Shown piece after piece: positions 36,988 to 64,000 of a stretch of DNA of 64,000 nt (the first letter of the stretch is position 1; the number at the start of each line of letters is the position of its first letter). Source of the DNA: an uncultured Gammaproteobacteria bacterium (GTDB lineage Bacteria; Pseudomonadota; Gammaproteobacteria; PS1; Pseudothioglobaceae); the NCBI GenBank assembly GCA_902556205.1, contig CACDVH010000005.1:9091-73090 (forward strand), in the 5' to 3' direction. Made by a program: the position numbers and the translations under genes. The notes under the pieces were generated by a model. The model was not told the DNA's origin, did no database searches, and saw only the letters and a program-made list of their open reading frames with translations.

Positions 36988-37001
36988 GTTAGATTACATA
37001 T

Positions 37002-37032
37002 AAAAAAGAGCCCACTTGTGGGCTCTTTTTTT
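37002..37032 (+). terminator. Intra-operon rho-independent terminator/attenuator after the SBP gene
   Basis: GAGCCCA (37008-14) pairs with TGGGCTC (37019-25), with a 4-nt loop. Flanked by A6 and T7 tracts. Lies between the SBP stop (36987) and the permease start (37049). Confidence 0.75.
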
Positions 37033-37048
37033 AAATAGAATAAGCATC

Positions 37049-38050: not shown

Positions 38051-38059
38051 ATTCCTATT

Positions 38060-39094: not shown

Positions 39095-39101
39095 ACCCTC
39101 A

Positions 39102-41796: not shown

Positions 41797-41811
41797 ATTT
41801 ACCTCAATCTA

Positions 41812-43869
41812 TTATTCTGAGTATAGCTTGATAAGTGTATCAGCTGCAACAACACCGTCTGAGCCTTTTAACACCAATAATGGATTAATGTCCAACTCTT
41901 CAACTGCGTTTGTACGGATTAATTCAATTACTGACATTACAGAATCTATTACAGCTTCAATATCTCCCTTCATACCGCCTCTGTAGCCCTCAAGTAGCTT
42001 GAAGACTTTTAAATTTGATAAAGCCTGACGGATATCTTCTCTACTAACAGGCAACATGAGAACAGAACTATCTTGCAAAAGTTCAACATATATACCGCCA
42101 CCGCCAACAATGATATGCTTCCCAAAGGTAGGATCATAGTCCATACCAATGATGAGTTCGCAAATAGGACTTTCAATCATTTTTTCAATTAAAAGCTCTG
42201 GGCTAATTTTGAATAAGTCATCACAAGCTTCTTTCAGAGTTTTCACATTTTGAATATTCAACCTAACACCATTCAATTCAGTCTTATGTGCTAATTTTGC
42301 ACCCGACACCTTAAGCGTTACTGGAAAGGAAATCTCCTCAGCAGCCTTTATCGCTTCAGTCACATTCTCAACAAGACATCCCATAGGTATTGTTACCCCA
42401 TATTTCTTTAGTAACTGTTTGCCTTGATACTCTGTTAATTGCTGCTTAGATTTATGTTCTGAACTATTTCTCAAAACCTCTAAATCAGGACTTGAATTAC
42501 TTGAAAAAGCCCTCCCAATTTTATAGGAGTGATTGAGCGCTTTTAAACATACATCTAACCCGACCATAGGAGCAATACCCAAACTTAGACACTCCTCTAT
42601 GATTCTTTTTGGCATACAGTCTGCCATAGATGCCAGTACGATTGCTTTTTCACTCGTGCCAGAAAGAGCATCTGAAAGAGCAAATAAAGTTGCGTCCCAG
42701 TCCTTTTGTTCCGATTCCTTAGACTTAGGCCAGTCCAAAAGCAGCATTGTTGCAGCAAATTGGCCACTCATCATGGCACTAAAGCATTCTGACGTTCTCT
42801 TTCTATCGCCCCAAATAAACGTATGGTAATCAAGCGGGTTATCTACCTCAACATAATCGTTTAGCGTCTGCTTAACTTTGGCCTTGTGTGATGAGCTGAG
42901 TGATGGAAAATTAATCTCTAAGCCATCAATTAAATCAGCCATCATTCCTGCCTCTCCCCCTGAGCAACTCATTGATGCGACGCCGCCATGTTCAATGACA
43001 CCCAATACATTGATAAGTTTAAGTGTTTCTAGAAACTCTGGAACAGTCTCTACTCTGGCTATACCAAGTCGCTCAAAAAGGGCATTATATAATTCATCTG
43101 AACCTGTTAATGAGCTTGTGTGGCTAAGAGCAATCTTTGCAGAGGCTTTTGTTTTTCCTGATTTAATAGTAATGATTGGAATTTTCATCATAAGAGCCCT
43201 TTTAGCTGCAATATCAAACGACTTAATGTCAGAAATACCTTCAATGTGGAGGCCAATCGCATTGACTCTTGAGTCATCCAACATCGCATGAATAATGTCT
43301 GCAATATTAGTATTTGTTTGATTTCCAAGAGTAAACATATAGGCAATTGGAAGACCGGAGGACTGCATAGTCATGTTCAGACCTATATTTCCGCTTTGTG
43401 TTATTATTGCAACACCTTCAGATACCGGTTCACAGCCATGAACATCTGGCCAAAGAGCAATCCCATCAAGACTATTTATAAAGCCATAACAATTTGGACC
43501 TATTAGCGGCATTCCAGAAGCAGCTTTCACTAATTGTTGATTGCGCATCAAACCCTCAGCGCCGACCTCTCCAAATCCAGAGGCATACAAAACAGCACCG
43601 CCACCGCCCATAGACTTCAGGTCAGATACAACCTCAATGGCAGACTCTGCATTAACTGCAATAAAAGTAGCGTCTGGAACTTCTGGCAAATCTTTAATGT
43701 CTTTAAAACATTTGATACCTTCAAGTGACTCTAGGTAAGGGTGAACTGCCCATATTTGATGACTATATCCTAATTTAAGAGATTCTCTAATCGCAAAATT
43801 TGCACCTCGATTGCCAACCACAGCGATTGACTTCGGAGAGATTAATCGATGCAAATTGCTTTTGCTCAT
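41812..43869 (-). CDS. NDP-forming acyl-CoA synthetase superfamily protein (CoA-binding + succinyl-CoA-synthetase-like + ATP-grasp); substrate unknown
   Basis: 685 aa. N-terminal CoA-binding Rossmann (SIAVVGN), a phosphohistidine-loop-like ALSHTSSLTGS, NPLDY, and a C-terminal ATP-grasp half (KQLLKKYGV..P, FPV.LK, ...HK...GGV.L). This is the architecture of acetate--CoA ligase (ADP-forming) and DddX. Confidence 0.8.
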   Translation of the reverse strand: MSKSNLHRLISPKSIAVVGNRGANFAIRESLKLGYSHQIWAVHPYLESLEGIKCFKDIKDLPEVPDATFIAVNAESAIEVVSDLKSMGGGGAVLYASGFGEVGAEGLMRNQQLVKAASGMPLIGPNCYGFINSLDGIALWPDVHGCEPVSEGVAIITQSGNIGLNMTMQSSGLPIAYMFTLGNQTNTNIADIIHAMLDDSRVNAIGLHIEGISDIKSFDIAAKRALMMKIPIITIKSGKTKASAKIALSHTSSLTGSDELYNALFERLGIARVETVPEFLETLKLINVLGVIEHGGVASMSCSGGEAGMMADLIDGLEINFPSLSSSHKAKVKQTLNDYVEVDNPLDYHTFIWGDRKRTSECFSAMMSGQFAATMLLLDWPKSKESEQKDWDATLFALSDALSGTSEKAIVLASMADCMPKRIIEECLSLGIAPMVGLDVCLKALNHSYKIGRAFSSNSSPDLEVLRNSSEHKSKQQLTEYQGKQLLKKYGVTIPMGCLVENVTEAIKAAEEISFPVTLKVSGAKLAHKTELNGVRLNIQNVKTLKEACDDLFKISPELLIEKMIESPICELIIGMDYDPTFGKHIIVGGGGIYVELLQDSSVLMLPVSREDIRQALSNLKVFKLLEGYRGGMKGDIEAVIDSVMSVIELIRTNAVEELDINPLLVLKGSDGVVAADTLIKLYSE

Positions 43870-43874
43870 TTTAA

Positions 43875-45032
43875 CTACTCAAAGGGTCTAAGCAAAGATC
43901 TAGAGATAATGTGCCTTTGTATCTCGCTCGTTCCATCCCATATTCTTTCTACTCGATGATCTCTCCATATTCTCTCAAGGGGAAGCTCATCCATCAGTCC
44001 CATGCCACCTAAAATTTGAATAGCCTCATCAGAAATCATTGCCAGAACCTCAGTTGCTTTAAGTTTTGCCATGGCGGCATCACTATTGGTCATCTGACCT
44101 TGAGAATCCTTCCATGCAGCTTTCAAAGTCAGTAATTCTGCTGCATTGAGCTCCATTGACATATCAGCAAGTTTAAATGAAACCCCTTGGAATTTGCCTA
44201 TCGTTTGACCAAATTGTTCTCGTGTTGCAGCCCATTCTGTTGCAATCTGCAAAGCCCTTTCCGCTCTACCAAGACACATCGCAGCAACGGACAATCGAGT
44301 CGCACCCAACCATTCATTAGCCACATCAAAACCATGGTCAACCTCACCGAGAACTTGTGATTCATGCACTCTACAGTTATCAAAATTAAGTATAAAGTTA
44401 TGGTAACCCCTATGAGAAACACTGTTGTAGCCGGGCTCAACTGAGAAGCCTGGCGTACCCATATCGACTAAAAAGCTTGTAATCTTTTTTTTCTCACCCC
44501 TTGGAGTTTGCTCAACACCCGAAGCAGCAAATAATATGACATAGTCAGCCATGTCCGCATGACTAATAAAATGCTTAGAGCCATTAATGACAAAAAATTC
44601 ACCATCTCTCTCCGCTTTACATTTCATTGAGCGAACATCAGAGCCAGCATTTGGCTCCGTCATCGCAAGACAGTCAACCTTTTCTCCCCGAATTGTTGGT
44701 AGCAAATATTCATCGATCTGTGATCCTTTACATGCCAATAAAATATTACTTGGACGAGCTACAATATACTGAAGTCCAAAATTTGCTTTTCCCAATTCTT
44801 TTTCTAATAGGCATAATGTAAGAGAATCTAACCCACCACCACCATGAGTTTCAGGCATATTGCATGCATAAAGTCCACTTTCTATTGATTTTTGCTTTAT
44901 CTGCTCTACAACTGAATCTTCTATTTTATTGTTCTTTTCAACCTCCTCTTCAAAAGGGTAAAGCTCTTTTTCAACAAAACTTTTGACAGAGTCAATAATC
45001 ATTTCTTGTTCGCTTGTAAGTCCAAAATTCAT
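43875..45032 (-). CDS. Acyl-CoA dehydrogenase
   Basis: 385 aa. Contains MTEPNAGSD, FISHA, QFG..IG.FQ and the C-terminal R...I.DGTSEIQR catalytic-Glu region. Confidence 0.92.
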   Translation of the reverse strand: MNFGLTSEQEMIIDSVKSFVEKELYPFEEEVEKNNKIEDSVVEQIKQKSIESGLYACNMPETHGGGGLDSLTLCLLEKELGKANFGLQYIVARPSNILLACKGSQIDEYLLPTIRGEKVDCLAMTEPNAGSDVRSMKCKAERDGEFFVINGSKHFISHADMADYVILFAASGVEQTPRGEKKKITSFLVDMGTPGFSVEPGYNSVSHRGYHNFILNFDNCRVHESQVLGEVDHGFDVANEWLGATRLSVAAMCLGRAERALQIATEWAATREQFGQTIGKFQGVSFKLADMSMELNAAELLTLKAAWKDSQGQMTNSDAAMAKLKATEVLAMISDEAIQILGGMGLMDELPLERIWRDHRVERIWDGTSEIQRHIISRSLLRPFE

Positions 45033-53121: not shown

Positions 53122-55680
53122 TTATTGTTGAATTTGAACAACTTTCCTCTTTCTTCTTAATTGCACAAAACCAACCATCCCTATTAATAATATTGCTGGA
53201 ATATAAACAATTTGTTTAGGCATAGTCTCCCTTTCTTGAAGAACTGAAGTAATAATCCAGCCACTATCTACACCTGCAACTTTTATGGATTCAACCTGTT
53301 TATTTATGGCTCGACTATTTGAAATTCCTGGGAGCACCATTGCAACTTCCATATCTCCAAATAAGTCATCTATTTGAAGTCCAGTATTATTTACCCTTTC
53401 TCTACCTGTCGCCCCATCAGCTAATGGTAATAAAAATGTGTAACTTCTCTCAACACCTTCAATTGTCTCGCCCTCAACAACAAAACGGATTGATTCACCT
53501 TCACTCATACTCTCAGCAACTGTAAACAACTCCTGACCTGAAATATTTTCATAAGGAGGGTCGACTTTATCCAAAAAATATCCTGGCCTGAAAAACATGA
53601 ATGCTACAAACAACATCAATACAGTCTCCCACAGTCGATTTTTAACAAGCCAATAACCCTGAGTAGCTGCAGCAAAAAGTAGAATTGCAATAACTGATGA
53701 GGTTACAACTGAAATAAAACTTATTACACTGTCAATACCAATCATAAGTAGCTGGGTATTGAAAATAAAAATAAATGGAAGTACGGCTGTCCTCATGTCA
53801 TAGATGAAACCCTGAATACCAGTTCTTATCGGATCCCCCTTGGAAATCGCTGCTGCTGCATAGGCAGCAAGACCCACTGGTGGCGTGTCATCAGCTAAAA
53901 TACCAAAATAAAAAACAAACATATGCGCTGCAATCAAAGGAATAGCGACATTATTAGCTGCACCTAAACTCATGATTACAGGGGCCATTAGACTTGAGAC
54001 GACAATATAATTAGCTGTTGTTGGTAAGCCCATTCCTAGAATAAGACTTATCATTGCAGTAAAAAGTAATATTAAAAATAAGTTTCCTGCAGCAATGAAT
54101 TCAACCCAGCCAATTATTAATTGTCCCACTCCAGTTAGTGTTACCGTGCCAACAATGATTCCTGCTGCAGTAGTAGCAACTCCGACACCAATCATATTTC
54201 TAGCTCCATTTACAAAACCAAGCTTTAGATCTATCAAACTTGAAACTAGATGAGCTGCAAAATTAGATTGGCGTCGAAATAAAGCTAAGATAAATTTCTG
54301 CGTTAGCACAATAAACATCATGAACATAGTTGCCCAGTAAACTGAAGTTTCGGGCGAAAACCGCTCAACAGTTAGTAACCAAATTAACAAAATGACTGGC
54401 AGTAAAAAATGAAGTCCTGCCTTAACTGTCTTGCCAATTTCAGGAATTTCAATTATATCTCCTGAGGGCAAATCTGGCATTCTTGAAACAGAATACAAGA
54501 GTCCAACATAACTAAAAAACATAATTAATGCTACAATTAATGTAGTTGCTTCGCCAGCGATCATCTTAATAAATTCGAAGAGAGGCGGGAGCACCCAAAC
54601 AAGAGTACCCAGAACAATCAAAACACTTGAAATACCGATTAACCTATCAACTTTATTAAGCTTGTTGGTTCTAGTAAGTCCTTCCATTCCAGACTTTAAA
54701 GCCTCCAAGTGAACGATATAGATCAGTGCAATGTAAGAAATGACAGCAGGCAAGAAAGCATGCTTAATTACTTCAATGTAAGAGACGCCGACATACTCAA
54801 CCATTAGAAATGCTGCAGTACCCATAATTGGCGGAGTTAGTTGGCCATTGGTAGAGGATGCAACCTCAATTGCTCCAGCTTTCTCGGATGGGAAGCCGAC
54901 TCGTTTCATTAATGGAATTGTAAATGTGCCTGTCGTTACAACATTGGCAATGGAGGATCCAGAAATCATACCAGTCATGGCAGAAGAGACGACTGCAGCC
55001 TTTGCAGGTCCCCCTCGATAATGTCCAGTAAGTGCATAAGCAACCCGTATGAAATAATTACCAGCACCAGCTCTTTCCAGTAGAGCGCCAAAAAGAACAA
55101 ATAAGAAAACCATACTTGCCGAGACTCCAACAGCGATTCCAAATGCTCCTTCAGTAGTAATCCACATGTGTGAGACAATTTTATTTAATGAAGCTCCCCC
55201 ATAACCGCCAGCCCCAAGAAATGCATAGGTCAACGCAATAATTGCTACTACCATTAGCGGTGGCCCAAGAGATCTTCTTGTAGCCTCTAAAAGAAGTAGA
55301 ATTCCAATAATGCTCAAAAATAAATCCGTTGAGTTTGGAACACCTAGCCGCATTTCAAAAGCCCTTGAATCCCAAACCTGGTTATAAACCAAATACAGAC
55401 AAGAAACGACTATAAGAATTCCCATAATCCAATCAGCCCATGGAATGACGACTCTCGATGATCTTTTAAGAGCTGGATAACTTAGAAAAGCTAAAAAGCC
55501 TGCAAAAGAGACATGAACTCTCTTCACTACATCTGCATTCATCCAAGGTGTTACTTCAAGAACTAAAGGGGAAGAAACGTAAAGCTGGAAGACTGACCAG
55601 GCCATAGCAACATAGATTAATATGTTCCTAATTAGTAGATTTCCTGGGTTTCTGTTTCCCGTTTCTAGATCGACTTCCAT
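53122..55680 (-). CDS. TAXI-type TRAP transporter fused permease (4TM/12TM fusion with C-terminal DUF3394-like extension)
   Basis: 852 aa and very hydrophobic. Sits downstream of a TAXI receptor. The C-terminal ~150-aa soluble segment plus final TM resembles the extension common in this family. Confidence 0.85.
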   Translation of the reverse strand: MEVDLETGNRNPGNLLIRNILIYVAMAWSVFQLYVSSPLVLEVTPWMNADVVKRVHVSFAGFLAFLSYPALKRSSRVVIPWADWIMGILIVVSCLYLVYNQVWDSRAFEMRLGVPNSTDLFLSIIGILLLLEATRRSLGPPLMVVAIIALTYAFLGAGGYGGASLNKIVSHMWITTEGAFGIAVGVSASMVFLFVLFGALLERAGAGNYFIRVAYALTGHYRGGPAKAAVVSSAMTGMISGSSIANVVTTGTFTIPLMKRVGFPSEKAGAIEVASSTNGQLTPPIMGTAAFLMVEYVGVSYIEVIKHAFLPAVISYIALIYIVHLEALKSGMEGLTRTNKLNKVDRLIGISSVLIVLGTLVWVLPPLFEFIKMIAGEATTLIVALIMFFSYVGLLYSVSRMPDLPSGDIIEIPEIGKTVKAGLHFLLPVILLIWLLTVERFSPETSVYWATMFMMFIVLTQKFILALFRRQSNFAAHLVSSLIDLKLGFVNGARNMIGVGVATTAAGIIVGTVTLTGVGQLIIGWVEFIAAGNLFLILLFTAMISLILGMGLPTTANYIVVSSLMAPVIMSLGAANNVAIPLIAAHMFVFYFGILADDTPPVGLAAYAAAAISKGDPIRTGIQGFIYDMRTAVLPFIFIFNTQLLMIGIDSVISFISVVTSSVIAILLFAAATQGYWLVKNRLWETVLMLFVAFMFFRPGYFLDKVDPPYENISGQELFTVAESMSEGESIRFVVEGETIEGVERSYTFLLPLADGATGRERVNNTGLQIDDLFGDMEVAMVLPGISNSRAINKQVESIKVAGVDSGWIITSVLQERETMPKQIVYIPAILLIGMVGFVQLRRKRKVVQIQQ

Positions 55681-55693
55681 TGGAATATTGTAT

Positions 55694-55726
55694 AAAAAAA
55701 AAGGATGGCAAAGCCATCCTTTTTTT
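55694..55726 (-). terminator. Intra-operon rho-independent terminator/attenuator after the TAXI receptor gene
   Basis: GGATGGC (55703-09) pairs with GCCATCC (55713-19), with a 3-nt loop. Flanked by A9 and T7 tracts, so it looks bidirectional. Lies between the SBP stop (55740) and the permease start (55680). Confidence 0.75.
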
Positions 55727-55739
55727 CATAACTTAAATA

Positions 55740-56717
55740 TTACATTAAGCCTGCTTCTTTATAGTATTTTGCTGCACCGTTGTGAAGCGGAGCAGATAAA
55801 CCATCCGAAATCATTTCTGCTTTCTTCAAGTTAGCAAACGCAGGGTGAAGCTTCTTAAAACTATCAAAGTTTTCAAAAACTCCCTTAACGATACTGTGAA
55901 TTACATGGTCAGAAGTCGCCGTTGAAGATACAACTGTTGCGCCCACACCAAATGTTACTGTATCATCAGGATTTCCATTGTACATTCCGCCTGGAATAGT
56001 GGCAGTTCGATAGAAATCATTGTTAGCTACTAATCCATCAACTGCAGCGCCAGTCACATTTACTAAGACACTATCACATGAAGTTGTTGCTTCTTTGATT
56101 GACCCTGAAGGGTGGCCAACAGTAAAGACCATTGCATCAATCTTGTTGTCGCATAGTGCTTTTGACTGCTCTGAAGACTTAAGTTCAGAGGCAAGTGCAA
56201 AGGTTGATTTATCCCAACCGAGAGCGTCCATTAATACCTCCATAGTTCCTCTCTGACCAGAGCCAGGGTTTCCTATGTTGACTCTCTTCCCTTTAAGGTC
56301 TTCAAGATTACGAATACCTGAATCTGCTCGTGCTACAACTGTAAAAGGCTCAGGGTGAACAGAAAATACAGCTCTTAAACCTGTAAATGCACCAGCATCA
56401 GCAAACTTGCTTGTTCCGTTATAAGCATGGTACTGCCAGTCTGACTGAGCAACACCCAAATCTAGCTCTCCAGCACGAATAGTATTGATGTTATAAACTG
56501 AGCCACCTGTTGACTCAACTGTACAACGAACACCATGACTCGCTCTATCTTTATTTACTAGTCTACAAATTGAACCACCAGTTGGGTAGTAGACCCCTGT
56601 TACTCCTCCGGTTCCAATTGTAACAAAAGTATCTGCAGCAATTACTGGCGCTGACACCGTCATGCTGCTTAATACAGCCGCGGCAAGTGCGCCACTTAAA
56701 AAGTTAATTTTTTTCAT
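55740..56717 (-). CDS. TAXI-family TRAP transporter solute receptor
   Basis: 325 aa. Signal peptide, [15 protein letters not shown] motif (TIGR02122-like) and C-terminal [10 protein letters not shown]. Confidence 0.88.
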
Positions 56718-56805
56718 TTCATCTCCTTTGTTTTATTAGACAAAAAATTTAAGTCCAAAATAGTTATACCATATTTAATACAATTGTTTCAATATTTATA
56801 TGTAT

Positions 56806-56821
56806 AAAACACAAGTGTTTT
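56806..56821. promoter_or_regulatory. Candidate operator: AAAACAC-AA-GTGTTTT inverted repeat in the TRAP/RpiR divergent region
   Basis: Perfect 7-bp arms with a 2-nt spacer, 48 nt upstream of the regulator ATG (56870) and 88 nt upstream of the SBP start (56717). Confidence 0.35.
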
Positions 56822-56869
56822 CATTTTGTTCGAGTTTATTTAGCTAGATTTATAGTAGAATATTCAGCT

Positions 56870-57751
56870 ATGGATTCAAATAACTTTTCGACTACTGAAA
56901 TCAATCAAAAACTGTCTAATGGATACGTTGGTTTTTCTAAAGAAGTTAAAAAAGCAGCCAAGTATGTAATGGATAATCCTGCAGAGATTCCCTTGCACTC
57001 AATACGAACTATTGCTTCAAATGCCGCAGTTAATCCCTCGACAATGGTTCGTCTTATAACCATACTAGGATTCAAACGTTATGATGAATTTAAGACGATT
57101 TACAAAAAGGCTGCATCCCAGATGCCTGTCTCCAACTTTACATCTCACGCAAAAGATCTCCTGAATGAAAAACATAAGAACCCTTTTTCTGATGTAGAAG
57201 CAAATGTATATAAGTCTCTTTCTGGAGCCTTCAATGATAAAACCTATAAAGCCATTGACTCATCTGTTGATAAATTAATGAAAGCTGAGACTGTTTACAT
57301 TCTAGGAATGAGAAGTAGCTTCTCAATGGCATTTTATTTGCACTATCTTCTGCATTTCATTCTGCCAAAAACAAAATTGATACGTGGCCAAGAAGGAATG
57401 TTACTAAGTGAAATTTCTCAAATAAATGCAAATGATGTGGTGATTGTATTTGGAGCATCTCCTTTGTCACTTGAAACAACAAAAGCACTAGACAAAATCA
57501 AGAAAAGAAAGGCTTTCATTATTGTCGCAACCGATATGTATACCTCTCAAGCAGCATCAAATGCAGATATCATTGTCGCACTTGGCAATGAGACTCTTAA
57601 TTTCCTACCAAGTATCTTGCCATATGCAGCATTCTCAGAAATTCTCGTTTCACAGATTATGACGAAGGGAGGTAAAAAAATGTTAGCTCGAATCAAAAAA
57701 TTTGAAGATGAGCTTTCTGAGATGGGCGCATATATAAGTCCCAGTCAATAA
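56870..57751 (+). CDS. MurR/RpiR-family transcriptional regulator (HTH + SIS domain)
   Basis: 293 aa. N-terminal HTH_6-like region (IRTIASNAAVNPSTMVRL) and a C-terminal SIS fold (VYILGMRSS...VVIVFG). Confidence 0.85.
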   Translation: MDSNNFSTTEINQKLSNGYVGFSKEVKKAAKYVMDNPAEIPLHSIRTIASNAAVNPSTMVRLITILGFKRYDEFKTIYKKAASQMPVSNFTSHAKDLLNEKHKNPFSDVEANVYKSLSGAFNDKTYKAIDSSVDKLMKAETVYILGMRSSFSMAFYLHYLLHFILPKTKLIRGQEGMLLSEISQINANDVVIVFGASPLSLETTKALDKIKKRKAFIIVATDMYTSQAASNADIIVALGNETLNFLPSILPYAAFSEILVSQIMTKGGKKMLARIKKFEDELSEMGAYISPSQ

Positions 57752-57773
57752 TTACAGCTTATGGATCGTACCA

Positions 57774-58463
57774 TTATTTAGAGAGGCTATTTTCGATTTC
57801 TTCCCAGTCCTCAAAATGAAGAACTTGACATGGCGAATTGATATTTTCAAGCCAGGCAAATATAGATATAAAAGGTTGCTCGTAAACTCGAGCAGCATGT
57901 CGCTCTCCAGGTTCATTCCAAACTAATGAACCGGCTGGATAGTCTTTCCATTCTCCCAATTCAAATCGCCAACCTGATTTATCTGAAAGGTTTAGATATA
58001 ACTCTGGCGCATCATGCTTGTGATCACGATAGAGCGTACGTGGTCCAAGCATGAACACGCCTAGGAGAAAGTCATCGCTTTGATATCCACAAGAATTAGG
58101 GCCAATTAGCAGAGTATGCAGGTTGCAATTTTTGTAACCTGGCCCAAGATTTGCTCCAGGTTGATAATATTGAGAATTATCTTCCAACCAAACAAGATCA
58201 TTCTTAGCTGAATAAAGGCAATTTGCAATCTCATTAAGCTGCTGTGCTTTTATTTCATAAATTGCTTGATTTAAAACCTTTTCATGTCTCGTTCCTTTAG
58301 GCTTAACATCAACAAGTTTATCATCGGAAAGATCAATTTTTTCTAACTTTCTCAATGTCATTTCAACTCCTGACATTTCTACTCTATGCTTTTCAAGATA
58401 ACTAATAATGGATCTAACTAGTGCCTTGACTCTAATCTTTCTATCCGTCATCACTTTTTTCAT
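57774..58463 (-). CDS. dddL: Cupin-type DMSP lyase-like protein (DddL-like)
   Basis: 229 aa. Cupin metal/catalytic signature H-K-H-D-A-P-E-L-Y (HxHxxxExY), and a further His 41 residues after the first His (PGERHAARV). This spacing matches cupin DMSP lyases (DddK/L/Q/W), and the length and long N-terminal extension fit DddL. No alignment was run. Confidence 0.55.
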   Translation of the reverse strand: MKKVMTDRKIRVKALVRSIISYLEKHRVEMSGVEMTLRKLEKIDLSDDKLVDVKPKGTRHEKVLNQAIYEIKAQQLNEIANCLYSAKNDLVWLEDNSQYYQPGANLGPGYKNCNLHTLLIGPNSCGYQSDDFLLGVFMLGPRTLYRDHKHDAPELYLNLSDKSGWRFELGEWKDYPAGSLVWNEPGERHAARVYEQPFISIFAWLENINSPCQVLHFEDWEEIENSLSK

Positions 58464-60027
58464 TTAGATTTAAAACATTTTTGCGCATTACTTTTTTGTC
58501 AAGCTTGCCAACGCTTGTTTTAGGAAGTTGCTCAACATAAAAAATGTTGTCGGGAATCGCCCATTTAGATATTTCTCCTAATTCAACATGTTCTCGAAAT
58601 TTTCTTAGTAAATCTTGTCTAATAAGATCTGGCACTGCATTATTCAAAAGTTTTACAACTAATACTACTCTTTCACCCCACTTTTCATTTGGAATGCCAA
58701 TAGCAGCCACTTCTTCAACGCCTGAACATGAGGATGCAATATTTTCGAGTGTAAGCGATGAGATCCATTCGCCACCAGTCTTGATAACATCTTTGAGACG
58801 ATCAGTAACTTGCAATGATCCATTCTCACGAATAAATCCAACATCTCCAGTATGCAGATAGCCATTGCTCCAGAGATCATTAGAGCCCTTAAGGTTACCC
58901 ATATAGCCTTTTGTCAACCAGGGAGCTCGTACAACAATTTCACCAGTTGTTATTCCATCATTAGGAACATCATGCATATCAGGGGTTACAACACGCAGAT
59001 CAACTAGTGGTGCTGAAAACCCAGTTTGGGATTGAGTATCTGGATCAGTACTTGATAAATCTGCAACTGTTAAAAATGGGCAGGTTTCTGACATACCATA
59101 AGCAGCATGCAATCTTATACCAAACTCAGAAGCGCGCCTCTGCAAACTCTTTGATAGAGCAGACCCTCCAATAATTACTTTCCATCTACTCAAATTTACT
59201 TTTTTACTATGGGGATGATCCAATAACATTGATAAAACAGTAGGAACACAATGTGAAAAGGTCACTGCCTCGGAATCGATTAATCGCAATATTGTCTCAG
59301 GGTCGTAACGATTGGGATAAACTTGACGAAGTCCCAACATTGTCGCAGCATAAGGGAAGCCCCACCCATGAACATGGAATAGTGGTGTTAGCGGCATATA
59401 AACATCGTCGCGATGTAATCCAGAATTTCCTGAAAATACACCAAACCCTGCTAATAAACCCAATGTGTGAAGAACCAACTGCCGATGTGAATAGCTGACT
59501 CCTTTTGGATCACCTGTTGTCCCAGTTGTATAAAACAGTGTTGCAGTTCTATTTTCATCAAATTCTGGAAAATTAAAACTAGTTGATGAACGACTTATCC
59601 ATTCTTCATACTTTTCACCATATCCAATAGGGATGATTAGAGTTTCGCACTCAAAGTCTGATTTGATTTCTTCAATTAAGGGCATGAAGTCCTGATGAAC
59701 AATTATTAGATCAGGCTTGGCATGATTAATTGTATAAAGAACTTGCTTTGGAGACAAACGCACATTGATTGTATGCAGAGCTGCCCCCATCATGGGTACA
59801 GCAAAAAAATACTCAAGATAGCGGTGAGTGTCCCAATCCATAACGCCGACGCGCATTTTTTCAGAAATACCCTTAGCAGTTAGAGAATTGGCCAGTCTTC
59901 CAAGGCGTCCAGTAAACTCATGATAATTTAGCCTTACATTTGGGTTACTAACAATTTCTTGCGAAAAAGACATAACGCTAGATTTTGTAAGAATTTGCTT
60001 AATTAAAAGGGGATACTCAGAATCCAT
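58441..60027 (-). CDS. AMP-forming medium-chain acyl-CoA ligase, DmdB (3-methylmercaptopropionyl-CoA ligase)-like
   Basis: 528 aa. AMP-binding motif YTTGTTGDPKGV. N-terminal region (PLLI..IL...........EIVS, W.THRYLE, GAALHTINVRLSP.Q..YTINHA) resembles DmdB as I recall it. 23-nt overlap with the dddL-like gene. Confidence 0.6.
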   Translation of the reverse strand: MDSEYPLLIKQILTKSSVMSFSQEIVSNPNVRLNYHEFTGRLGRLANSLTAKGISEKMRVGVMDWDTHRYLEYFFAVPMMGAALHTINVRLSPKQVLYTINHAKPDLIIVHQDFMPLIEEIKSDFECETLIIPIGYGEKYEEWISRSSTSFNFPEFDENRTATLFYTTGTTGDPKGVSYSHRQLVLHTLGLLAGFGVFSGNSGLHRDDVYMPLTPLFHVHGWGFPYAATMLGLRQVYPNRYDPETILRLIDSEAVTFSHCVPTVLSMLLDHPHSKKVNLSRWKVIIGGSALSKSLQRRASEFGIRLHAAYGMSETCPFLTVADLSSTDPDTQSQTGFSAPLVDLRVVTPDMHDVPNDGITTGEIVVRAPWLTKGYMGNLKGSNDLWSNGYLHTGDVGFIRENGSLQVTDRLKDVIKTGGEWISSLTLENIASSCSGVEEVAAIGIPNEKWGERVVLVVKLLNNAVPDLIRQDLLRKFREHVELGEISKWAIPDNIFYVEQLPKTSVGKLDKKVMRKNVLNLNEKSDDG

Positions 60028-60071
60028 ATTCTTAGTAGATACTCAAACTGTAAGTCAGAAAACCAAGTCTA

Positions 60072-61718
60072 TTAGTTTTCTTTTAGCTCTCTTCTTAAGA
60101 CTTTTCCAACATTAGTTTTTGGAATCTCTTTGATAAATTCTATATGCTTTGGAACTTTATAAGCGGTTAACTTTTCCCTACAGAAACTGATAATTTCTTC
60201 CTCAGTTGCAGTTTGCTCATCATGAAGAACAATAAATACTTTTACAAGCTCTTGAGAACCTTCACCCTCTATTCCAACACAGCCACATTCAAGAACAGCA
60301 GGGTGCTCATTAACAACCGCTTCAACCTCATTTGGAAAGACATTAAAGCCTGAGACAATAATCATGTCCTTCTTTCGATCCACAATAAAAATATTACCAG
60401 TTTCATCAATTCGAGCAATGTCACCGGTCATAAACCAATTATTCTTATCAAGACCAGAGACTTCCGACTTCCAATAACCACTCATAACCTGTGGGCCTCT
60501 GACACAAAGCTCTCCAACAGCATTCGTTTCGGAAAGGGCATTTCCATCTTCATCCCTAATTTCAATTTCAGTGTAAGATGCTGGCAGGCCTACTGAGCCT
60601 GTAAATTCAGTCTGCTTGTAGTCGTTAACACTAACCAATGGAGAGGTCTCAGTGAGTCCATAAGCCTGCCAAATCACTGATTTAGTAACCTCTGCCCATC
60701 TTTTTGCCGTTGTGTCAAGGGCTGCCATACCCCCGCTTAATGACATGAGCAAGTTACTGAAATCTAACTCTTTAAATCCGTCATAATTCAATAGCGCCTC
60801 ATAAAGCGTGTTCACACCTGAGATCATGTGAAACTTATGTTTCTTCATTATTGAAACGAATGCCTTAAGATCTCTAGGATTGGTAATCAAAACGCTCCTT
60901 CCACCAATATGGAACAGCATGAAGTTATGAACAGTTAGAGCAAAAATATGATACAAAGGTAATGGGCAAATAGCGATCCTTTGTTCTTTTCTTGAGTCAT
61001 CGTACATTTTAGGATCGATTGTAAAGAAGGCCTGGATGATGTTAGCAAGAATATTTCGGTGAGTCAGAATAGCGCCTTTAGAAACACCAGTAGTTCCCCC
61101 AGTGTACTGAAGGAACGCAGTGTTCTCAATAGGAATATCTATGGGTGCTGACTTTGATCCTTCATTCTCCTTCAAAACCTCAAGAAACATTTTTGCACCA
61201 TCAATTTGATACTTCGGCACTAACTTTTTGACTTTTCTAGTAACCAAATTAATGATCTTTCCCTTAAATCCAAGAAGATCTCCAACAGTTGTTACCAGAA
61301 CTTTCTCCACGCTTGCAAGGTCTGATTTAGCAGCAACGTTAGCAACGCCCTCCCAAACCAATAATAATTTTGCTTCGCTGTCTCTCAAGACATGCTCAAG
61401 CTCTCTTTGAGTGTAGAGAGGGTTAATGTTCACCACAACGATACCTGCTTTCAAGGCACCATAGACTATGACAGGGTAAACCAGCATGTTAGGCATCATG
61501 ACAGCAACTCTGTCACCCACCTCAAAGTTGCTAGTCAGCCAAGAGGCAAAGGAGTGAACCTGGGCCGATAAATCATTGTAGGACATCTCAACCCCAAAAC
61601 TTTCAAACGCTATCTTTTCTTGATGCTCATTACAACAGTTATCAAAAAACTCTACTAAGTTTCCATGCTCCTTAAAAAAATCTGTCTCTTCAAGTTTGTT
61701 TGGTATGTTGACTGTCAT
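60072..61718 (-). CDS. fadD: Long-chain-fatty-acid--CoA ligase
   Basis: 548 aa. Contains LQYTGGTTGVSKGAILTHRNI, GYGLTE-like (AYGLTETSP), TGDIA and the C-terminal GK lysine. Closely FadD-like. Confidence 0.85.
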   Translation of the reverse strand: MTVNIPNKLEETDFFKEHGNLVEFFDNCCNEHQEKIAFESFGVEMSYNDLSAQVHSFASWLTSNFEVGDRVAVMMPNMLVYPVIVYGALKAGIVVVNINPLYTQRELEHVLRDSEAKLLLVWEGVANVAAKSDLASVEKVLVTTVGDLLGFKGKIINLVTRKVKKLVPKYQIDGAKMFLEVLKENEGSKSAPIDIPIENTAFLQYTGGTTGVSKGAILTHRNILANIIQAFFTIDPKMYDDSRKEQRIAICPLPLYHIFALTVHNFMLFHIGGRSVLITNPRDLKAFVSIMKKHKFHMISGVNTLYEALLNYDGFKELDFSNLLMSLSGGMAALDTTAKRWAEVTKSVIWQAYGLTETSPLVSVNDYKQTEFTGSVGLPASYTEIEIRDEDGNALSETNAVGELCVRGPQVMSGYWKSEVSGLDKNNWFMTGDIARIDETGNIFIVDRKKDMIIVSGFNVFPNEVEAVVNEHPAVLECGCVGIEGEGSQELVKVFIVLHDEQTATEEEIISFCREKLTAYKVPKHIEFIKEIPKTNVGKVLRRELKEN

Positions 61719-61733
61719 TAGATTACCTCATTG

Positions 61734-62303
61734 TTAGTTATTTTTTACTTTGCCTATTAAGATTTCCTTATATTCATTATAAACCTCTCCATCCTTTTTG
61801 AAAGCAAAACATGAGTTTGCAAACTTCTTTTCTATTGACTTGGCCTCTTCAAGAGTTATGGCTTCTGACTCACCACCTGTTTTTTCTTTCCACAGGGTTT
61901 GATAAGCAATAGTTCCAGCATAGGCCAGGAGGTCAGTAATGTGTCTGCAACCCTTTTCGCCCCCTAGAGCCTTTATGACCTTTCTATTAAAGCCAGCAAC
62001 GACATACTCGCCCTTTAGTTTTTGGCAGTTTTTAACCGCTTGAGGGCAAATGTTATAGGGAGAGGCGTTTATCGATGCCTCTATATCGATAATTTGTCTG
62101 TTATCATCGAGAGTCAGTCTGAGCGCCATGTCATGAAGAGGCTCACCGGCGCTAATATATCCTCGATGCATATTGTTAAAGGAGTAGGTTTTACTATCAA
62201 CAAGAAAAACTTCAATGTCCCACATTCCATCTTCTCTTTTATAGCCTTTGCCTTCAATCGTTCTATTATGTTTTAAATCTCTTCTGGCCGGCTTAGATAG
62301 CAT
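61734..62303 (-). CDS. DUF2889-domain protein
   Basis: 189 aa. The pattern HNRTIEGKGYKREDGMWDIEVFLVD.K, AGEPLHDM.LRL, P...CP and CRH.TDLL is typical of DUF2889. Confidence 0.65.
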   Translation of the reverse strand: MLSKPARRDLKHNRTIEGKGYKREDGMWDIEVFLVDSKTYSFNNMHRGYISAGEPLHDMALRLTLDDNRQIIDIEASINASPYNICPQAVKNCQKLKGEYVVAGFNRKVIKALGGEKGCRHITDLLAYAGTIAYQTLWKEKTGGESEAITLEEAKSIEKKFANSCFAFKKDGEVYNEYKEILIGKVKNN

Positions 62304-62313
62304 AGTGTGATCC

Positions 62314-63294
62314 TTATGAAATTCGATTTTTAGATTCTTTATATTGCTGCTCTAATTCTAACATCAAATCCTCAACACTCGGCACATTGGAAATTGAGCC
62401 AACACCTTGACCAGCAGAAAAAATATCCTTCCATCTCTTTGCTGAAGCCTTACTGACATCAAAATCTACCTTAAGTTTTTGCTTGATGAGTGGCATTATC
62501 ATTTTCTTAAAATTAGAGATTGTTGATTGAATACCTCCAGCATTTGGATTAATACCAGCGTTATTAAGGGATTGCTCAAGCCAGTTCCCATTCACTCCGG
62601 TAATCTTGTTAGACTTAATAATATCACCTGCCGATGCATTTAAGATCATCTGCTTATAGTCTTCAGTCGCGTCACTCTCTTCGGTGGCAATAAATCGAGT
62701 GCCCATATAAGCCATATCTGCCCCCAAAGCTTGAATCGCTAGAACTGAATCGCCAGAACTAATACTTCCACCAACTATAATTGTTCCATCAAATATGCTT
62801 CTCACTTCAGATATAAAGGCGAATGGGGAAAGGTCTCCAGTATGACCCCCCGCACCATTACAAACAAGAATAAGTCCGTCTACTCCAGCGCTAATTGCTT
62901 TTTTTGAGTGATACAAATTAATGACATCTGAATAGACTAGGCCGCCATATTCATGAACTTTATTTACAACCTCTTTAGGGTTCCCAAGAGAGGTAATAAC
63001 TATGGGCGGCTTATGCTTAAGAATTAACTCTATATCATCATTACTCCTGGCATACATTTTACTTACGATGATGTTTACCGCCCAAGGCAGAGCATCTTTA
63101 CCTGATCCTAATGCTTGTGTTATTTCTGTGAATTCTTGATCTAAAGCCTCTAAAGTTCGACAGTTAGCAGTCGGAAAGGACCCAACAATTCCTGCCTTAG
63201 AAGATGCTATCACAAGCCTAGCATTCGAGACAATAAACATAGGTGACTGAATAATTGGCAGTCTGAGCTGGTCGATGTAGTTTTGATTAGTCAT
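62314..63294 (-). CDS. Nitronate monooxygenase / FabK-like FMN-dependent enoyl reductase family protein
   Basis: Contains LPIIQSPM, GAGGHTG and MGTRF motifs. Start set at ATG 63294 (MTNQNY); the ORF-track extension to 63345 would overlap the thiolase. Confidence 0.85.
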   Translation of the reverse strand: MTNQNYIDQLRLPIIQSPMFIVSNARLVIASSKAGIVGSFPTANCRTLEALDQEFTEITQALGSGKDALPWAVNIIVSKMYARSNDDIELILKHKPPIVITSLGNPKEVVNKVHEYGGLVYSDVINLYHSKKAISAGVDGLILVCNGAGGHTGDLSPFAFISEVRSIFDGTIIVGGSISSGDSVLAIQALGADMAYMGTRFIATEESDATEDYKQMILNASAGDIIKSNKITGVNGNWLEQSLNNAGINPNAGGIQSTISNFKKMIMPLIKQKLKVDFDVSKASAKRWKDIFSAGQGVGSISNVPSVEDLMLELEQQYKESKNRIS

Positions 63295-63301
63295 AAATGA
63301 T

Positions 63302-64000
63302 TTAGCATCTTTTAATGATCCCTGCAGCCCCCATCCCAGTTCCAATACACATGGTTACCATTCCATAATCAATCTTTTCTCTTTGCATTGCAGAAACAAG
63401 TGTTGCAATTCTAATGGCTCCAGTAGCACCCAGAGGATGTCCAAGGGCTATAGCACCTCCAAGTGGGTTGACCTTTTCTGGATCAAGTTTTAACTCCTGA
63501 GTAACAGCCAGAGATTGCGCAGCAAATGCCTCATTAAGCTCAATCCATCCAATATCATCAAGAGAAAGGTCTAAGGAGTCAAGAACTTTAGGCACCGCCT
63601 TGACTGGACCAATACCCATTATTTCTGCAGGAACTCCGGCAACCGAAAAGCCCAGAAACTCTGCCTTAGGCGTTAAATTATATTTCTCAACTGCCTCTTC
63701 ACTAGCAACAAGAACAGCGGCGGCGGCATCTGACATTTGAGAGCTGTTTCCTGCTGTCACTGAACCATCTTGAGCAAAAACAGTTCTTAGTTTTGCTAAA
63801 ACTTCCAAACTTGTATCTTCTCTAGGTCCTTCATCTTTAGAAACAAGATTAGTGTTTTTTATATATTCATTTGATTCAACTGAGTAACTATCCTCAACAG
63901 TTGAAATGGGTACAATTTCATTTTCAAATAAACCGCTATTGTTTGCTTTTATTGCTTTTTGGTGGCTGTCGTAAGCGAACTGATCTTGTGCCTCTCGGGA
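63302..64000 (-). CDS. Acetyl-CoA C-acyltransferase (thiolase), C-terminal part; gene continues past the window end
   Basis: The reading frame is open from the window edge: SREAQDQFAYDSHQKA...VSKDEGPR...LAKLRTVF...GSVTAGNSS.MSD.AAAV, NEAFAAQ, GGAIALGHPLGATG and CIGTGMG. The ORF track's TTG at 63808 is internal. Confidence 0.92.
   Translation of the reverse strand, partial: SREAQDQFAYDSHQKAIKANNSGLFENEIVPISTVEDSYSVESNEYIKNTNLVSKDEGPREDTSLEVLAKLRTVFAQDGSVTAGNSSQMSDAAAAVLVASEEAVEKYNLTPKAEFLGFSVAGVPAEIMGIGPVKAVPKVLDSLDLSLDDIGWIELNEAFAAQSLAVTQELKLDPEKVNPLGGAIALGHPLGATGAIRIATLVSAMQREKIDYGMVTMCIGTGMGAAGIIKRC

What the first reader, a model, noticed from the sequence alone, without database searches (positions are those of the whole stretch)
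57774..64000. DMSP-lyase-like gene sits at the 3' end of a beta-oxidation-like operon
Seen: six minus-strand genes are separated by +7, +10, +15 and +44 nt gaps and a -23 nt overlap. In order they are a thiolase, an NMO/FabK-like FMN protein, DUF2889, FadD, a DmdB-like ligase and a DddL-like cupin. The ligase stop overlaps the cupin start, which suggests translational coupling. Inference: the arrangement would couple DMSP cleavage (acrylate + DMS) directly to CoA activation of acrylate or 3-methylmercaptopropionate. The FabK-like enoyl reductase is a candidate non-orthologous replacement for the AcuI acryloyl-CoA reductase. DUF2889 has no assigned role. Linking a cleavage-pathway gene and a demethylation-pathway-type ligase in one transcript would be unusual.
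Basis: inference. Interest (0 to 1): 0.65.

Follow-up and report, generated by a model that had tools for sequence, protein, structure and literature searches.

The report
Mobile ligase plus DMSP-lyase gene pair
A free-living marine bacterium of the SUP05 group (Pseudothioglobus) carries a two-gene mobile unit at the end of its fatty-acid breakdown operon: an acid-activating ligase overlapping a DMSP lyase. The same pair is conserved, and in one lineage fused into one protein, in many marine bacteria, which suggests an apparently undescribed link between release of the climate gas DMS and activation of the by-product acrylate.

Summary
Six co-directional minus-strand genes have exactly the stated spacings (+7, +10, +15, +44, -23 nt). 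The last gene is a genuine DddL-family cupin.

The interpretation needs revising in four ways.
- The window comes from Pseudothioglobus (SUP05 clade). The operon continues upstream as fadE-fadB-fadA-NMO-DUF2889-fadD, and that part is native and conserved without dddL.
- The ligase and dddL form a 2.3-kb accessory cassette. Only 4 of 45 fadD-anchored metagenome loci carry it, 2 carry a deletion scar, and other loci carry different cassettes at the same spot.
- The ligase is not DmdB. It fails the DmdB equivalog cut-off, and its closest solved relative is the Vibrio harveyi acyl-ACP synthetase AasS (about 50% identity).
- The ligase-dddL pair is not unique to this window. 38 of 65 genome loci with a dddL homologue have the same ligase immediately upstream, usually with an ATGA stop/start overlap. 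In Roseobacters the pair sits in a mobile island: betaine-type ABC transporter, LysR, ligase, dddL, fadB, fadA. One lineage encodes a 765-aa ligase::DddL fusion.

Best reading: DddL cleaves DMSP, and the coupled ligase thioesterifies the acrylate for hydratase or reductase handling. The reaction order and substrate are inferred, not shown. I found no description of this pair in the searchable literature.

The parts
57774..58463 (-). dddL: DddL-family cupin DMSP lyase (229 aa; 225 aa if it starts at the ATG at 58451)
   Evidence: PF16867 scores 76.4 bits against a cut-off of 27. The cupin motif H148-x-H150-x3-E154-x-Y156 and H189 are invariant across 15 homologues. It is 62-64% identical to DddL of the Roseobacter island and 53-56% to Sulfitobacter-type DddL. 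The best solved-structure matches by sequence and by fold are DddQ DMSP lyases.
58441..60027 (-). AMP-forming acyl-thioester ligase (528 aa) of the AasS/ttFACS group; its stop overlaps the dddL start
   Evidence: NCBIfam PRK06187 scores 553 bits against a cut-off of 476. The DmdB equivalog PRK07008 scores 383 against 822. Closest solved structure is V. harveyi AasS (8hsy), 543 bits and about 50% identity; DmdB (6ihk) scores 295 bits. It is 72% identical to the ligase upstream of dddL in Roseobacters.
57752..60069 (-). The 2.3-kb accessory cassette (ligase + dddL) between the fadD stop and the rpiR stop
   Evidence: At empty sites (L087, L094) homology to the window stops at 60070 and resumes at about 57738-57750. 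L078 and L079 retain the first 65 nt of the ligase joined to the last 50 nt of dddL, so window 57824-59962 is deleted there. The cassette is present in 4 of 45 fadD-anchored metagenome loci. Its GC3 of 0.28 matches the host mean of 0.30.
60072..61718 (-). Native FadD-like long-chain fatty-acid--CoA ligase (548 aa), last gene of the ancestral operon
   Evidence: Best NCBIfam hits are PRK07059 (657 bits) and the FadD equivalog (615 bits), both below their cut-offs. It is conserved next to DUF2889 and NMO in every related locus, with or without the cassette.
61734..62303 (-). DUF2889 protein (189 aa), native operon member of unknown role
   Evidence: PF11136 scores 123 bits. H12, C86, C119, H121 and C165 are invariant. 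The AF2 model (pLDDT 69) gives only weak IscU-like fold hits, E about 0.02. It lies between NMO and fadD in all Thioglobaceae-like loci examined; one more distant DUF2889 (48% identity, L139) sits in an unrelated context.
62314..63294 (-). NMO/FabK-family FMN oxidoreductase (326 aa from the ATG at 63294; the ORF extends to a TTG at 63345)
   Evidence: PF03060 scores 102 bits. The FabK equivalog TIGR03151 scores 109 bits against a cut-off of 453. Best solved structures are FabK enzymes, E 1e-23. It is a native operon member.
63302..64000 (-). 3' part of the fadA-type thiolase (cut by the window end; 396 aa in L006)
   Evidence: Thiolase_N and Thiolase_C are found. TIGR01930 scores 292 bits against a cut-off of 240. 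In L006-L008 the full gene is preceded by fadB (814 aa) and fadE.
56870..57751 (+). RpiR/SIS-family regulator, convergent with dddL (22-nt gap); flank of the insertion site, not part of the cassette
   Evidence: Pfam HTH_6 plus SIS. It directly abuts fadD in 10 loci that lack the cassette.

Best explanation
Shown:
- The window is from a Pseudothioglobus (SUP05/Arctic96BD-19 clade).
- Its native eight-gene fatty-acid beta-oxidation operon, fadE-fadB-fadA-NMO-DUF2889-fadD, has acquired a 2.3-kb two-gene cassette at its 3' end. The cassette is an AMP-forming ligase of the AasS/ttFACS group whose stop overlaps the start of a DddL-family DMSP lyase.
- The cassette is gained and lost as a unit within Pseudothioglobus populations.
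- The same overlapping pair is the core of a horizontally mobile island in Roseobacters and a few Gammaproteobacteria. The island reads: betaine-type ABC transporter, divergent LysR, ligase, dddL, fadB, fadA, often followed by AraC and an acyl-CoA dehydrogenase.
- In one lineage the two proteins are fused into one 765-aa polypeptide.

Inferred:
- DddL cleaves imported DMSP to DMS and acrylate.
- The co-translated ligase immediately thioesterifies the acrylate, most likely to acryloyl-CoA.
- The product is passed to an enoyl-CoA hydratase: FadB, encoded beside the pair in Roseobacters and upstream in the same operon here. It may also go to a reductase, and the NMO/FabK-like protein is a possible ArkA-like candidate.
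- In this genome the pair has no regulator or visible promoter of its own. It is probably read through from the beta-oxidation operon.
For: Organism and native operon:
- DddL is 87% identical, and flanking proteins 89-98% identical, in the same gene order as Pseudothioglobus sp. nBUS_23.
- fadE-fadB-fadA lies upstream in L006-L008.
- A relative with 61% DUF2889 identity has the same six genes and no dddL.

Cassette:
- Presence, absence and a deletion scar are documented.

DddL identity:
- A Labrenzia strain carries the full island.
- An L. aggregata dddL- mutant loses about 97% of its DMSOP-lyase activity (cleavage of a close DMSP analogue), and the cloned lyase genes tested, dddL among them, confer DMSP-dependent DMS production on E. 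coli (PMC10686828).

Coupling of ligase and DddL:
- 38 of 65 genome loci with a dddL homologue have the ligase directly upstream. The junction ATCATGAC, with a 4-nt overlap, is nearly invariant; the overlap is 11 nt in Pseudothioglobus.
- Ligase-linked DddLs form one clade.
- The ligase::DddL fusion is seen as 10 full-length sequences in its cluster, and one of them lies on 20 contigs.
- The host operon already has its own FadD, so the second ligase is not simply redundant.

Link to CoA chemistry:
- fadB and fadA follow dddL in the island.
- A 59%-identical ligase sits directly before fadB-fadA with no dddL.

Precedents:
- The acuR-acuI-dddL operon, and AMP-binding ligases next to acuI (PMC3338564; PMC4029986).
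Against: - No evidence shows that the ligase prefers a C3 acid. Its nearest characterised relative, AasS, loads C7-C18 acyl chains onto ACP. The acyl-pocket residues H226, V227 and gate W230 are conserved here.
- Some DddLs inside the linked clade lack the ligase (L034, L040, L043, L044), and the whole Sulfitobacter-type sister clade lacks it. DddL therefore works without it.
- The slot after fadD is a general hot spot that holds other cassettes in other strains. Co-location with beta-oxidation genes in this genome may be incidental.
- Acryloyl-CoA is regarded as more toxic than acrylate (PMC3338564). Making it only helps if a downstream enzyme is present, and none of the enzymes proposed here for that step has been tested.
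- Co-transcription is inferred only from spacing and the absence of signals.
Confidence: 0.5

Rival explanations
1. The ligase acts before the lyase. It activates a sulfonium zwitterion, either DMSP itself or a longer homologue such as gonyol or a dimethylsulfonio-fatty acid taken up by the betaine-type transporter. FadB and FadA (plus the acyl-CoA dehydrogenase) shorten the thioester to DMSP or DMSP-CoA. The DddL domain then releases DMS. This would make the pair an ATP-dependent route comparable in outcome to DddX.
For: - Gene and domain order is always ligase then DddL, including in the fusion.
- The island combines a betaine-type ABC transporter with a complete beta-oxidation set: ligase, fadB, fadA and an acyl-CoA dehydrogenase.
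- A ligase homologue occurs with fadB-fadA alone.
- ATP-dependent DMSP lysis through a CoA thioester exists in DddX (PMC8163506).
- Gonyol catabolic genes appear to be unknown (PMC7221440).
Against: - DddL enzymes cloned alone cleave free DMSP to DMS in E. coli.
- The cupin motif that, from my own knowledge of other cupin DMSP lyases, binds the free carboxylate through the metal is intact.
- Pseudothioglobus and the fusion lineage keep only ligase plus DddL, without an adjacent fadB-fadA from the island.
- The ligase pocket looks like a hydrophobic fatty-acid pocket.
Confidence: 0.2
2. There is no biochemical link. The ligase is a general medium/long-chain fatty-acid ligase, feeding acyl-CoA to beta-oxidation or, like AasS, acyl-ACP to lipid synthesis. 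It merely travels with dddL because the two became neighbours once in a mobile island.
For: - Closest characterised homologue is AasS, at about 50% identity.
- PGAP-type naming would call it a long-chain-fatty-acid--CoA ligase.
- A homologue sits with fadB-fadA and no dddL.
- The linked clade can be explained by one ancestral juxtaposition.
Against: - The stop/start overlap is maintained across Alpha- and Gammaproteobacteria.
- The pair alone, without fadB-fadA, was retained on transfer to Pseudothioglobus, which already has a FadD.
- In-frame fusion with a DddL domain from a different DddL clade (41% identity to the window DddL, while its ligase domain is 70% identical) argues for selection on the pairing.
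Confidence: 0.15
3. A DmdB-type MMPA/acrylate-CoA ligase bridges the cleavage and demethylation pathways in one dedicated DMSP operon. In that operon the NMO/FabK-like protein replaces AcuI, and DUF2889 and the thiolase are pathway components.
For: - DmdB is the second-best NCBIfam model (383 bits).
- A FabK-family protein, ArkA, confers acrylate resistance (PMC4029986).
- The genes are tightly spaced.
Against: - The ligase fails the DmdB equivalog cut-off and is nearer to AasS.
- NMO, DUF2889, thiolase and FadD are conserved as a unit in relatives that lack dddL, so they predate the cassette.
- No dmdA, dmdC or dmdD was found among the window genes I scanned, which were not all of them.
Confidence: 0.1

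Closest known systems
[quoted passage not shown]
   Same: A DddL lyase is co-transcribed with an enzyme that handles the acrylate or acryloyl-CoA it generates.
   Different: The partner here is an AMP-forming ligase, not the AcuI MDR012 reductase. The partner lies upstream and overlaps dddL. The regulator is LysR (in the island) or none (in this window) rather than TetR-type AcuR. The pair is mobile and sometimes fused.
DddX, the ATP-dependent DMSP lyase of Psychrobacter sp. D2 (PMC8163506; PDB 7cm9)
   Same: It combines ATP-dependent CoA ligation with DMS release. The ligase::DddL fusion would give the same net products if the two activities are coupled.
   Different: DddX is a single ADP-forming ACD-superfamily enzyme that works through DMSP-CoA. 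Here there are an AMP-forming ligase and a separate cupin lyase, and the reaction order is unknown.
PrpE/AcuI (and AcuH) acrylate route of Ruegeria pomeroyi (own knowledge; discussed in PMC3338564 and PMC4029986)
   Same: Acrylate goes to acryloyl-CoA through an AMP-forming ligase, followed by reduction or hydration.
   Different: PrpE is a propionate-CoA ligase family member that is not linked to a lyase gene. The ligase here belongs to the PRK06187/AasS group and is physically tied to dddL.
DmdB, 3-(methylthio)propionyl-CoA ligase (PDB 6ihk/6ijb)
   Same: Same broad AMP-binding subgroup. It is the second-best NCBIfam model for the ligase.
   Different: It scores 383 bits against a cut-off of 822. 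The solved DmdB scores 295 bits, against 543 for AasS.
Vibrio harveyi AasS acyl-ACP synthetase (PDB 8hsy; PMC12086093)
   Same: About 50% identity over 512 residues. H226, V227 and gate W230 are conserved, as are K465 and W466.
   Different: Of the ACP-contact residues, H463, K485 and L506 are changed and K492 and R502 are conservatively replaced. The genomic context (fadB-fadA, dddL) points to CoA rather than ACP chemistry. No hexamer or ACP evidence is available.
ArkA, the FabK-family acrylate-resistance protein of Bacillaceae (PMC4029986)
   Different: Orthology was not tested. The window protein belongs to a native beta-oxidation operon that exists without dddL.

Membership tests
DddL DMSP lyase (Pfam PF16867) | Scores above the Pfam gathering threshold | tested here: met
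   76.4 bits against a cut-off of 27, covering profile positions 31-161 of 162.
DddL DMSP lyase | Cupin metal and catalytic motif HxHxxxExY plus a distal His. The motif definition comes from my own knowledge of the cupin DMSP lyases DddK, DddQ, DddW and DddL. | tested here: met
   H148, H150, E154, Y156 and H189 are present and invariant in 15 aligned homologues.
DddL DMSP lyase | Close relationship to experimentally validated DddL (Sulfitobacter EE-36, R. sphaeroides, L. aggregata) | tested here: inconclusive
   It is 62% identical to DddL of Labrenzia sp. EL_208, 55% to Sulfitobacter sediminis and 63% to Ruegeria atlantica. Validation of L. aggregata and EE-36 DddL is taken from PMC10686828.
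DddL DMSP lyase | Converts DMSP to DMS plus acrylate | not testable with these tools
   Needs expression and a DMS assay.
DmdB (MMPA-CoA ligase, NCBIfam NF005426) | Reaches the equivalog cut-off | tested here: not met
   383 bits against a cut-off of 822. PRK06187 is the best model, and the only one among the 25 best listed to pass its cut-off (553 against 476).
DmdB | The nearest solved structure is DmdB | tested here: not met
   AasS (8hsy) scores 543 bits, ttFACS (1ult) 333 bits and DmdB (6ihk) 295 bits.
AasS acyl-ACP synthetase | ACP-interface residues of the C-terminal domain: K465, W466, H463, K485, K492, R502, L488, L505, L506 (PMC12086093) | tested here: inconclusive
   K465, W466 and L488 are kept. 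K492 becomes R, R502 becomes K and L505 becomes I. H463 becomes N, K485 becomes Q and L506 becomes P. From my own knowledge, the K-W pair is also common in CoA ligases.
AasS acyl-ACP synthetase | Acylates holo-ACP rather than CoA | not testable with these tools
   Context with fadB-fadA favours CoA but is indirect.
FabK enoyl-ACP reductase II (TIGR03151) | Reaches the equivalog cut-off | tested here: not met
   109 bits against a cut-off of 453. Only the broad PF03060 NMO family is met, at 102 bits.
AcuI acryloyl-CoA reductase (MDR012) | Medium-chain dehydrogenase/reductase fold | tested here: not met
   The candidate is an FMN TIM-barrel NMO-family protein, so it could only be a non-orthologous analogue such as ArkA. 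Its activity is untested.
Fatty-acid beta-oxidation operon | Encodes acyl-CoA dehydrogenase, hydratase/3-hydroxyacyl-CoA dehydrogenase, thiolase and acyl-CoA ligase in one co-directional cluster | tested here: met
   fadE (ACDH_C), an 814-aa 3HCDH+ECH protein, thiolase and a FadD-like ligase are present in L006-L008 and L136-L138. The window itself holds the distal part.

The most novel reading that the evidence does not exclude
The ligase and DddL work as a single ATP-dependent unit, as a complex or (in one lineage) a fusion. One possibility is that the unit converts DMSP to DMS and an acryloyl thioester without releasing free acrylate, which would make it a two-part functional analogue of DddX. 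Alternatively, together with the island's FadB, FadA and acyl-CoA dehydrogenase, it forms a catabolic route for longer sulfonium osmolytes such as gonyol, in which CoA activation and beta-oxidation precede DMS release. Either version would define a new DMS-producing pathway, one that is also present in SUP05-clade Gammaproteobacteria.
Probability: 0.2. Interest if true: 0.8.

Novelty: new variant of a known kind. Interest (0 to 1): 0.6.

Why it matters
DMSP cleavage is the main biological source of atmospheric DMS. How cells cope with the acrylate co-product, and which enzyme makes acryloyl-CoA in cleavage pathways, is only partly known.

- A ligase that is conserved next to DddL, overlaps it for likely translational coupling, and is sometimes fused to it is a strong, directly testable candidate for that missing step, or for an ATP-dependent variant of DMSP lysis.
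- The result adds heterotrophic SUP05-clade Pseudothioglobus, which is abundant in polar and coastal waters, to the potential DMS producers. It does so as a strain-variable trait, which matters for gene-based DMS budgets.
- It also shows that the NMO-DUF2889 pair is a fixed component of a beta-oxidation operon. That gives DUF2889 a context in which it can be studied.

Tried and rejected
- **RNA genes:** tRNA and Rfam scans of the window found nothing.
- **Signals:** The promoter/terminator scan gave only chance-level hits, so the operon structure cannot be settled from sequence.
- **DddL model:** The AF2 model is of low confidence (pLDDT 62). I used it only to note that DddQ lyases are the top fold hits.
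- **DUF2889:** No PDB sequence hit, only weak IscU-like fold hits and no informative literature. No function is assigned.
- **ACP versus CoA:** Checking AasS's ACP-contact and acyl-pocket residues in the ligase did not discriminate between ACP and CoA, or between chain lengths.
- **Profile search:** The DddL profile search of 1.84 billion representatives showed a small family (38 representatives at E <= 1e-30). It listed no fused representative, so it added nothing on fusion frequency.
- **Recent transfer:** I considered a recent import from high-GC Roseobacters and rejected it, because the cassette's GC3 equals the host's.
- **Transporter:** The betaine-type transporter in the window (35971-39094) is not the island's. 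Its binding protein is only 28% identical.
- **Literature:** Searches for dddL with CoA ligase, acyl-CoA, 3-hydroxyacyl-CoA dehydrogenase or Thioglobus found no description of the pair. The library covers open-access papers only, so this is weak evidence of absence.
- **Gonyol hypothesis:** It could not be tested computationally.

Full report
**1.

The ORF table gives six co-directional minus-strand genes at 57774-64000:
- cupin, 57774-58463
- ligase, 58441-60027
- FadD-like ligase, 60072-61718
- DUF2889, 61734-62303
- NMO-family protein, 62314-63294 (the longest ORF starts at a TTG at 63345, but the ATG at 63294 gives the 326-aa length of homologues)
- a thiolase whose 5' part lies beyond the window end

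The spacings are +7, +10, +15 and +44 nt and a 23-nt overlap. The overlap is 11 nt if dddL starts at the ATG that aligns with the homologues' MTD... start. Pfam confirms every family. No tRNA or Rfam element is present. The scan found no terminator-like site in the fadD-ligase spacer, and promoter-like matches are at chance level.

**2. The organism and the true extent of the operon.**

A genome scan with a DddL alignment returned Pseudothioglobus sp. nBUS_23 and two related single-cell genomes (labelled MAG in the records). They have 86-87% DddL identity, the same gene order, and flanking proteins 89-98% identical. In those loci the operon continues upstream with a FadE-type acyl-CoA dehydrogenase and an 814-aa 3-hydroxyacyl-CoA dehydrogenase/enoyl-CoA hydratase, followed by the thiolase that the window cuts. 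A more distant relative (61% DUF2889 identity) has AraC | fadE-fadB-fadA-NMO-DUF2889-fadD and then unrelated genes. So NMO, DUF2889, the thiolase and FadD belong to a native beta-oxidation operon that exists without any dddL.

**3. Ligase plus dddL is an accessory cassette.**

I anchored a metagenome scan on FadD, which returned 61 related loci. Of 45 loci with at least 400 nt after fadD:
- 4 carry ligase-dddL
- 10 go straight from fadD to the 3' end of rpiR
- 8 go straight to the TAXI-TRAP binding protein
- 21 have something else
- 2 (L078, L079) keep the first 65 nt of the ligase joined to the last 50 nt of dddL, a clean 2,139-bp internal deletion of window 57824-59962

Empty sites lose homology at window 60070 and regain it at about 57738-57750, which delimits a cassette of about 2.3 kb. 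Other strains carry other content at the same slot. L072 has nothing before TK-TauE-poly(A) polymerase. L082 has a Liv-type ABC transporter with another AMP-binding enzyme. The slot is therefore a flexible hot spot. The cassette's GC3 (0.28) matches the host mean (0.30 +/- 0.04), so it is not a recent import.

**4. The cupin is a DddL.**

- PF16867 scores 76 bits against a cut-off of 27.
- The HxHxxxExY motif and the distal His are invariant.
- Identity is 62-64% to DddL of many Roseobacters and 53-56% to Sulfitobacter-type DddL.
- DddQ lyases are the best PDB matches by sequence and by fold, although the model is only pLDDT 62.
- Labrenzia sp. EL_208 carries the same island. An L. aggregata dddL- mutant loses about 97% of its DMSOP-lyase activity, and cloned dddL confers DMSP-dependent DMS production on E. 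coli (PMC10686828).
- The family is small: 38 representatives at E <= 1e-30 among 1.84 billion.

**5. The ligase is not DmdB.**

NCBIfam places it in PRK06187 (553 bits against a cut-off of 476). The DmdB equivalog scores 383 against 822. Its nearest solved relative is the V. harveyi acyl-ACP synthetase AasS, at 543 bits and about 50% identity over 512 residues. ttFACS scores 333 bits and DmdB 295 bits. AasS pocket residues H226 and V227 and the gate W230 are conserved. ACP-contact residues are partly kept and partly changed, which does not decide between ACP and CoA.

**6. The pair is conserved far beyond this window.**

- Of 65 genome loci with a dddL homologue, 38 have this ligase (66-73% identity where full length) immediately upstream, 22 do not, and 5 are too short to tell.
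- In about 35 of them the junction is ATCATGAC, with the ligase TGA overlapping the dddL ATG. In Pseudothioglobus the overlap is 11 nt.
- In Roseobacters the pair sits in an island: OpuAC-type ABC transporter (three genes), divergent LysR, ligase, dddL, FadB (ECH+3HCDH), thiolase, often AraC and an acyl-CoA dehydrogenase.
- The island is more than 90% identical in protein sequence across genera. It also occurs in Cocleimonas, Luminiphilus and a Pseudomonadales MAG, which indicates horizontal spread.
- In a rough NJ tree the ligase-linked DddLs form one clade that includes the Pseudothioglobus branch, with sporadic loss of the ligase. The Sulfitobacter-type sister clade has LysR-dddL only.
- A 59%-identical ligase homologue sits directly before fadB-fadA with no dddL. 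This suggests the ligase originally belonged with CoA-dependent beta-oxidation genes.

**7. A natural fusion exists.**

The ligase search returned a 765-aa protein with AMP-binding, AMP-binding_C and DMSP_lyase domains. Its 90% cluster holds ten 765-aa sequences; one of them lies on 20 contigs. The cluster also holds a split 528 + 237 aa form on one NCBI contig. Its context is OpuAC ABC transporter, FA_hydroxylase, divergent LysR and the fusion, with no fadB-fadA. Its ligase domain is 70% identical to the window ligase, but its DddL domain is only 41% identical and falls in a distant DddL clade. The pairing has therefore been kept, or re-made, across divergent lyases.

**8. Mechanism.**

What is shown is the tight and repeated genetic coupling of this ligase with DddL, and its frequent company of a betaine-type importer, a LysR regulator and FadB-FadA.

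The most economical reading has three steps:
- DddL makes DMS plus acrylate.
- The co-translated ligase converts the acrylate to acryloyl-CoA.
- A hydratase (FadB) or a reductase removes this reactive thioester.

This parallels acuR-acuI-dddL and the AMP-binding ligases seen next to acuI (PMC3338564, PMC4029986). In Pseudothioglobus the pair brought no regulator and shows no visible promoter or terminator. It is probably expressed by read-through from the beta-oxidation operon, which also supplies a hydratase. The NMO protein could reduce acryloyl-CoA as proposed for ArkA, but it predates the cassette, so this would be opportunistic.

The rivals are:
- the ligase acts first on DMSP or on a longer sulfonium acid
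- the two genes merely hitch-hike together

**9. Novelty.**

Coupling a DMSP lyase gene to acrylate-handling genes is a known theme. I did not find this specific conserved, overlapping and sometimes fused ligase-DddL module, or its presence as a strain-variable cassette in SUP05-clade Pseudothioglobus, described in the searchable literature. I rate it a new variant of a known kind, of moderate to high interest because it can be tested directly.

Noticed in passing
window 41011-45032 (-), with 35971-39875 (+) and 33359-34993 (-): This looks like a second cluster for zwitterion catabolism. On the minus strand are an acyl-CoA dehydrogenase, a 685-aa ADP-forming ACD-type CoA ligase and a CaiD-like crotonobetainyl-CoA hydratase. 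The ligase's best PDB hit is the DMSP lyase DddX (7cm9, 250 bits). The hydratase scores 395 bits on PRK03580 against a cut-off of 500. Beside them are an OpuAC-type ABC transporter, an SDR and a choline-dehydrogenase-like GMC oxidoreductase. It could be a carnitine/gamma-butyrobetaine route or a DddX-like DMSP route.
   Followed up: partly
window 61734-62303: DUF2889 has invariant H12, C86, C119, H121 and C165. Its AF2 model (pLDDT 69) gives only weak hits to the Fe-S scaffold IscU (E about 0.02). In all Thioglobaceae-like loci examined it lies between the NMO-family flavoprotein and fadD, which hints at a metal- or cluster-binding partner of that flavoprotein.
   Followed up: partly
L072, L082, L073, L087 (region after fadD; equivalent to window 53122-60071): The slot downstream of fadD is hypervariable among Pseudothioglobus-like populations. 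It holds nothing (fadD then TK-TauE-poly(A) polymerase), or RpiR plus a TAXI-TRAP transporter, or TAXI-TRAP alone, or a Liv-type ABC transporter with a 608-aa AMP-binding enzyme, or ligase-dddL.
   Followed up: partly
L078:6632-6910 and L079:9599-9877: These loci carry a deletion scar. The first 65 nt of the ligase gene are joined to the last 50 nt of dddL, so 2,139 bp of the cassette are missing.
   Followed up: yes
L006:8438-10023 (Pseudothioglobus sp. nBUS_23 complete genome): The ligase is split into two ORFs of 370 and 153 aa in this genome; the paper that reports four cultured Pseudothioglobus genomes sequenced its cultures with Nanopore. This is either a real frameshift (pseudogene) or a sequencing indel. 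dddL is intact.
   Followed up: no
L046:7827-8876; L133:4190-5194; L135:3392-4396: A fatty-acid-hydroxylase-superfamily protein (PF04116) recurs next to the divergent LysR of dddL. It appears both in a Sulfitobacter-type locus without the ligase and in the fusion lineage. Its role is unknown.
   Followed up: partly
L133:6554-8851 (P0241/P0225): The 765-aa ligase::DddL fusion combines a ligase domain 70% identical to the window's with a DddL domain only 41% identical, from a distant DddL clade. This suggests that the pairing arose or was re-assorted more than once.
   Followed up: partly
L009-L031, L038, L016, L056: The island (transporter, LysR, ligase, dddL, fadB, fadA) is more than 90% identical in protein sequence among different Roseobacter genera. 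It also turns up in Gammaproteobacteria (Cocleimonas, Luminiphilus, a Pseudomonadales MAG), which indicates recent horizontal spread.
   Followed up: partly
L143:448-5201: A 59%-identical homologue of the ligase in a Hyphomicrobiaceae MAG is followed directly by fadB and a thiolase, with no dddL. This is a possible ancestral arrangement into which dddL was inserted.
   Followed up: partly
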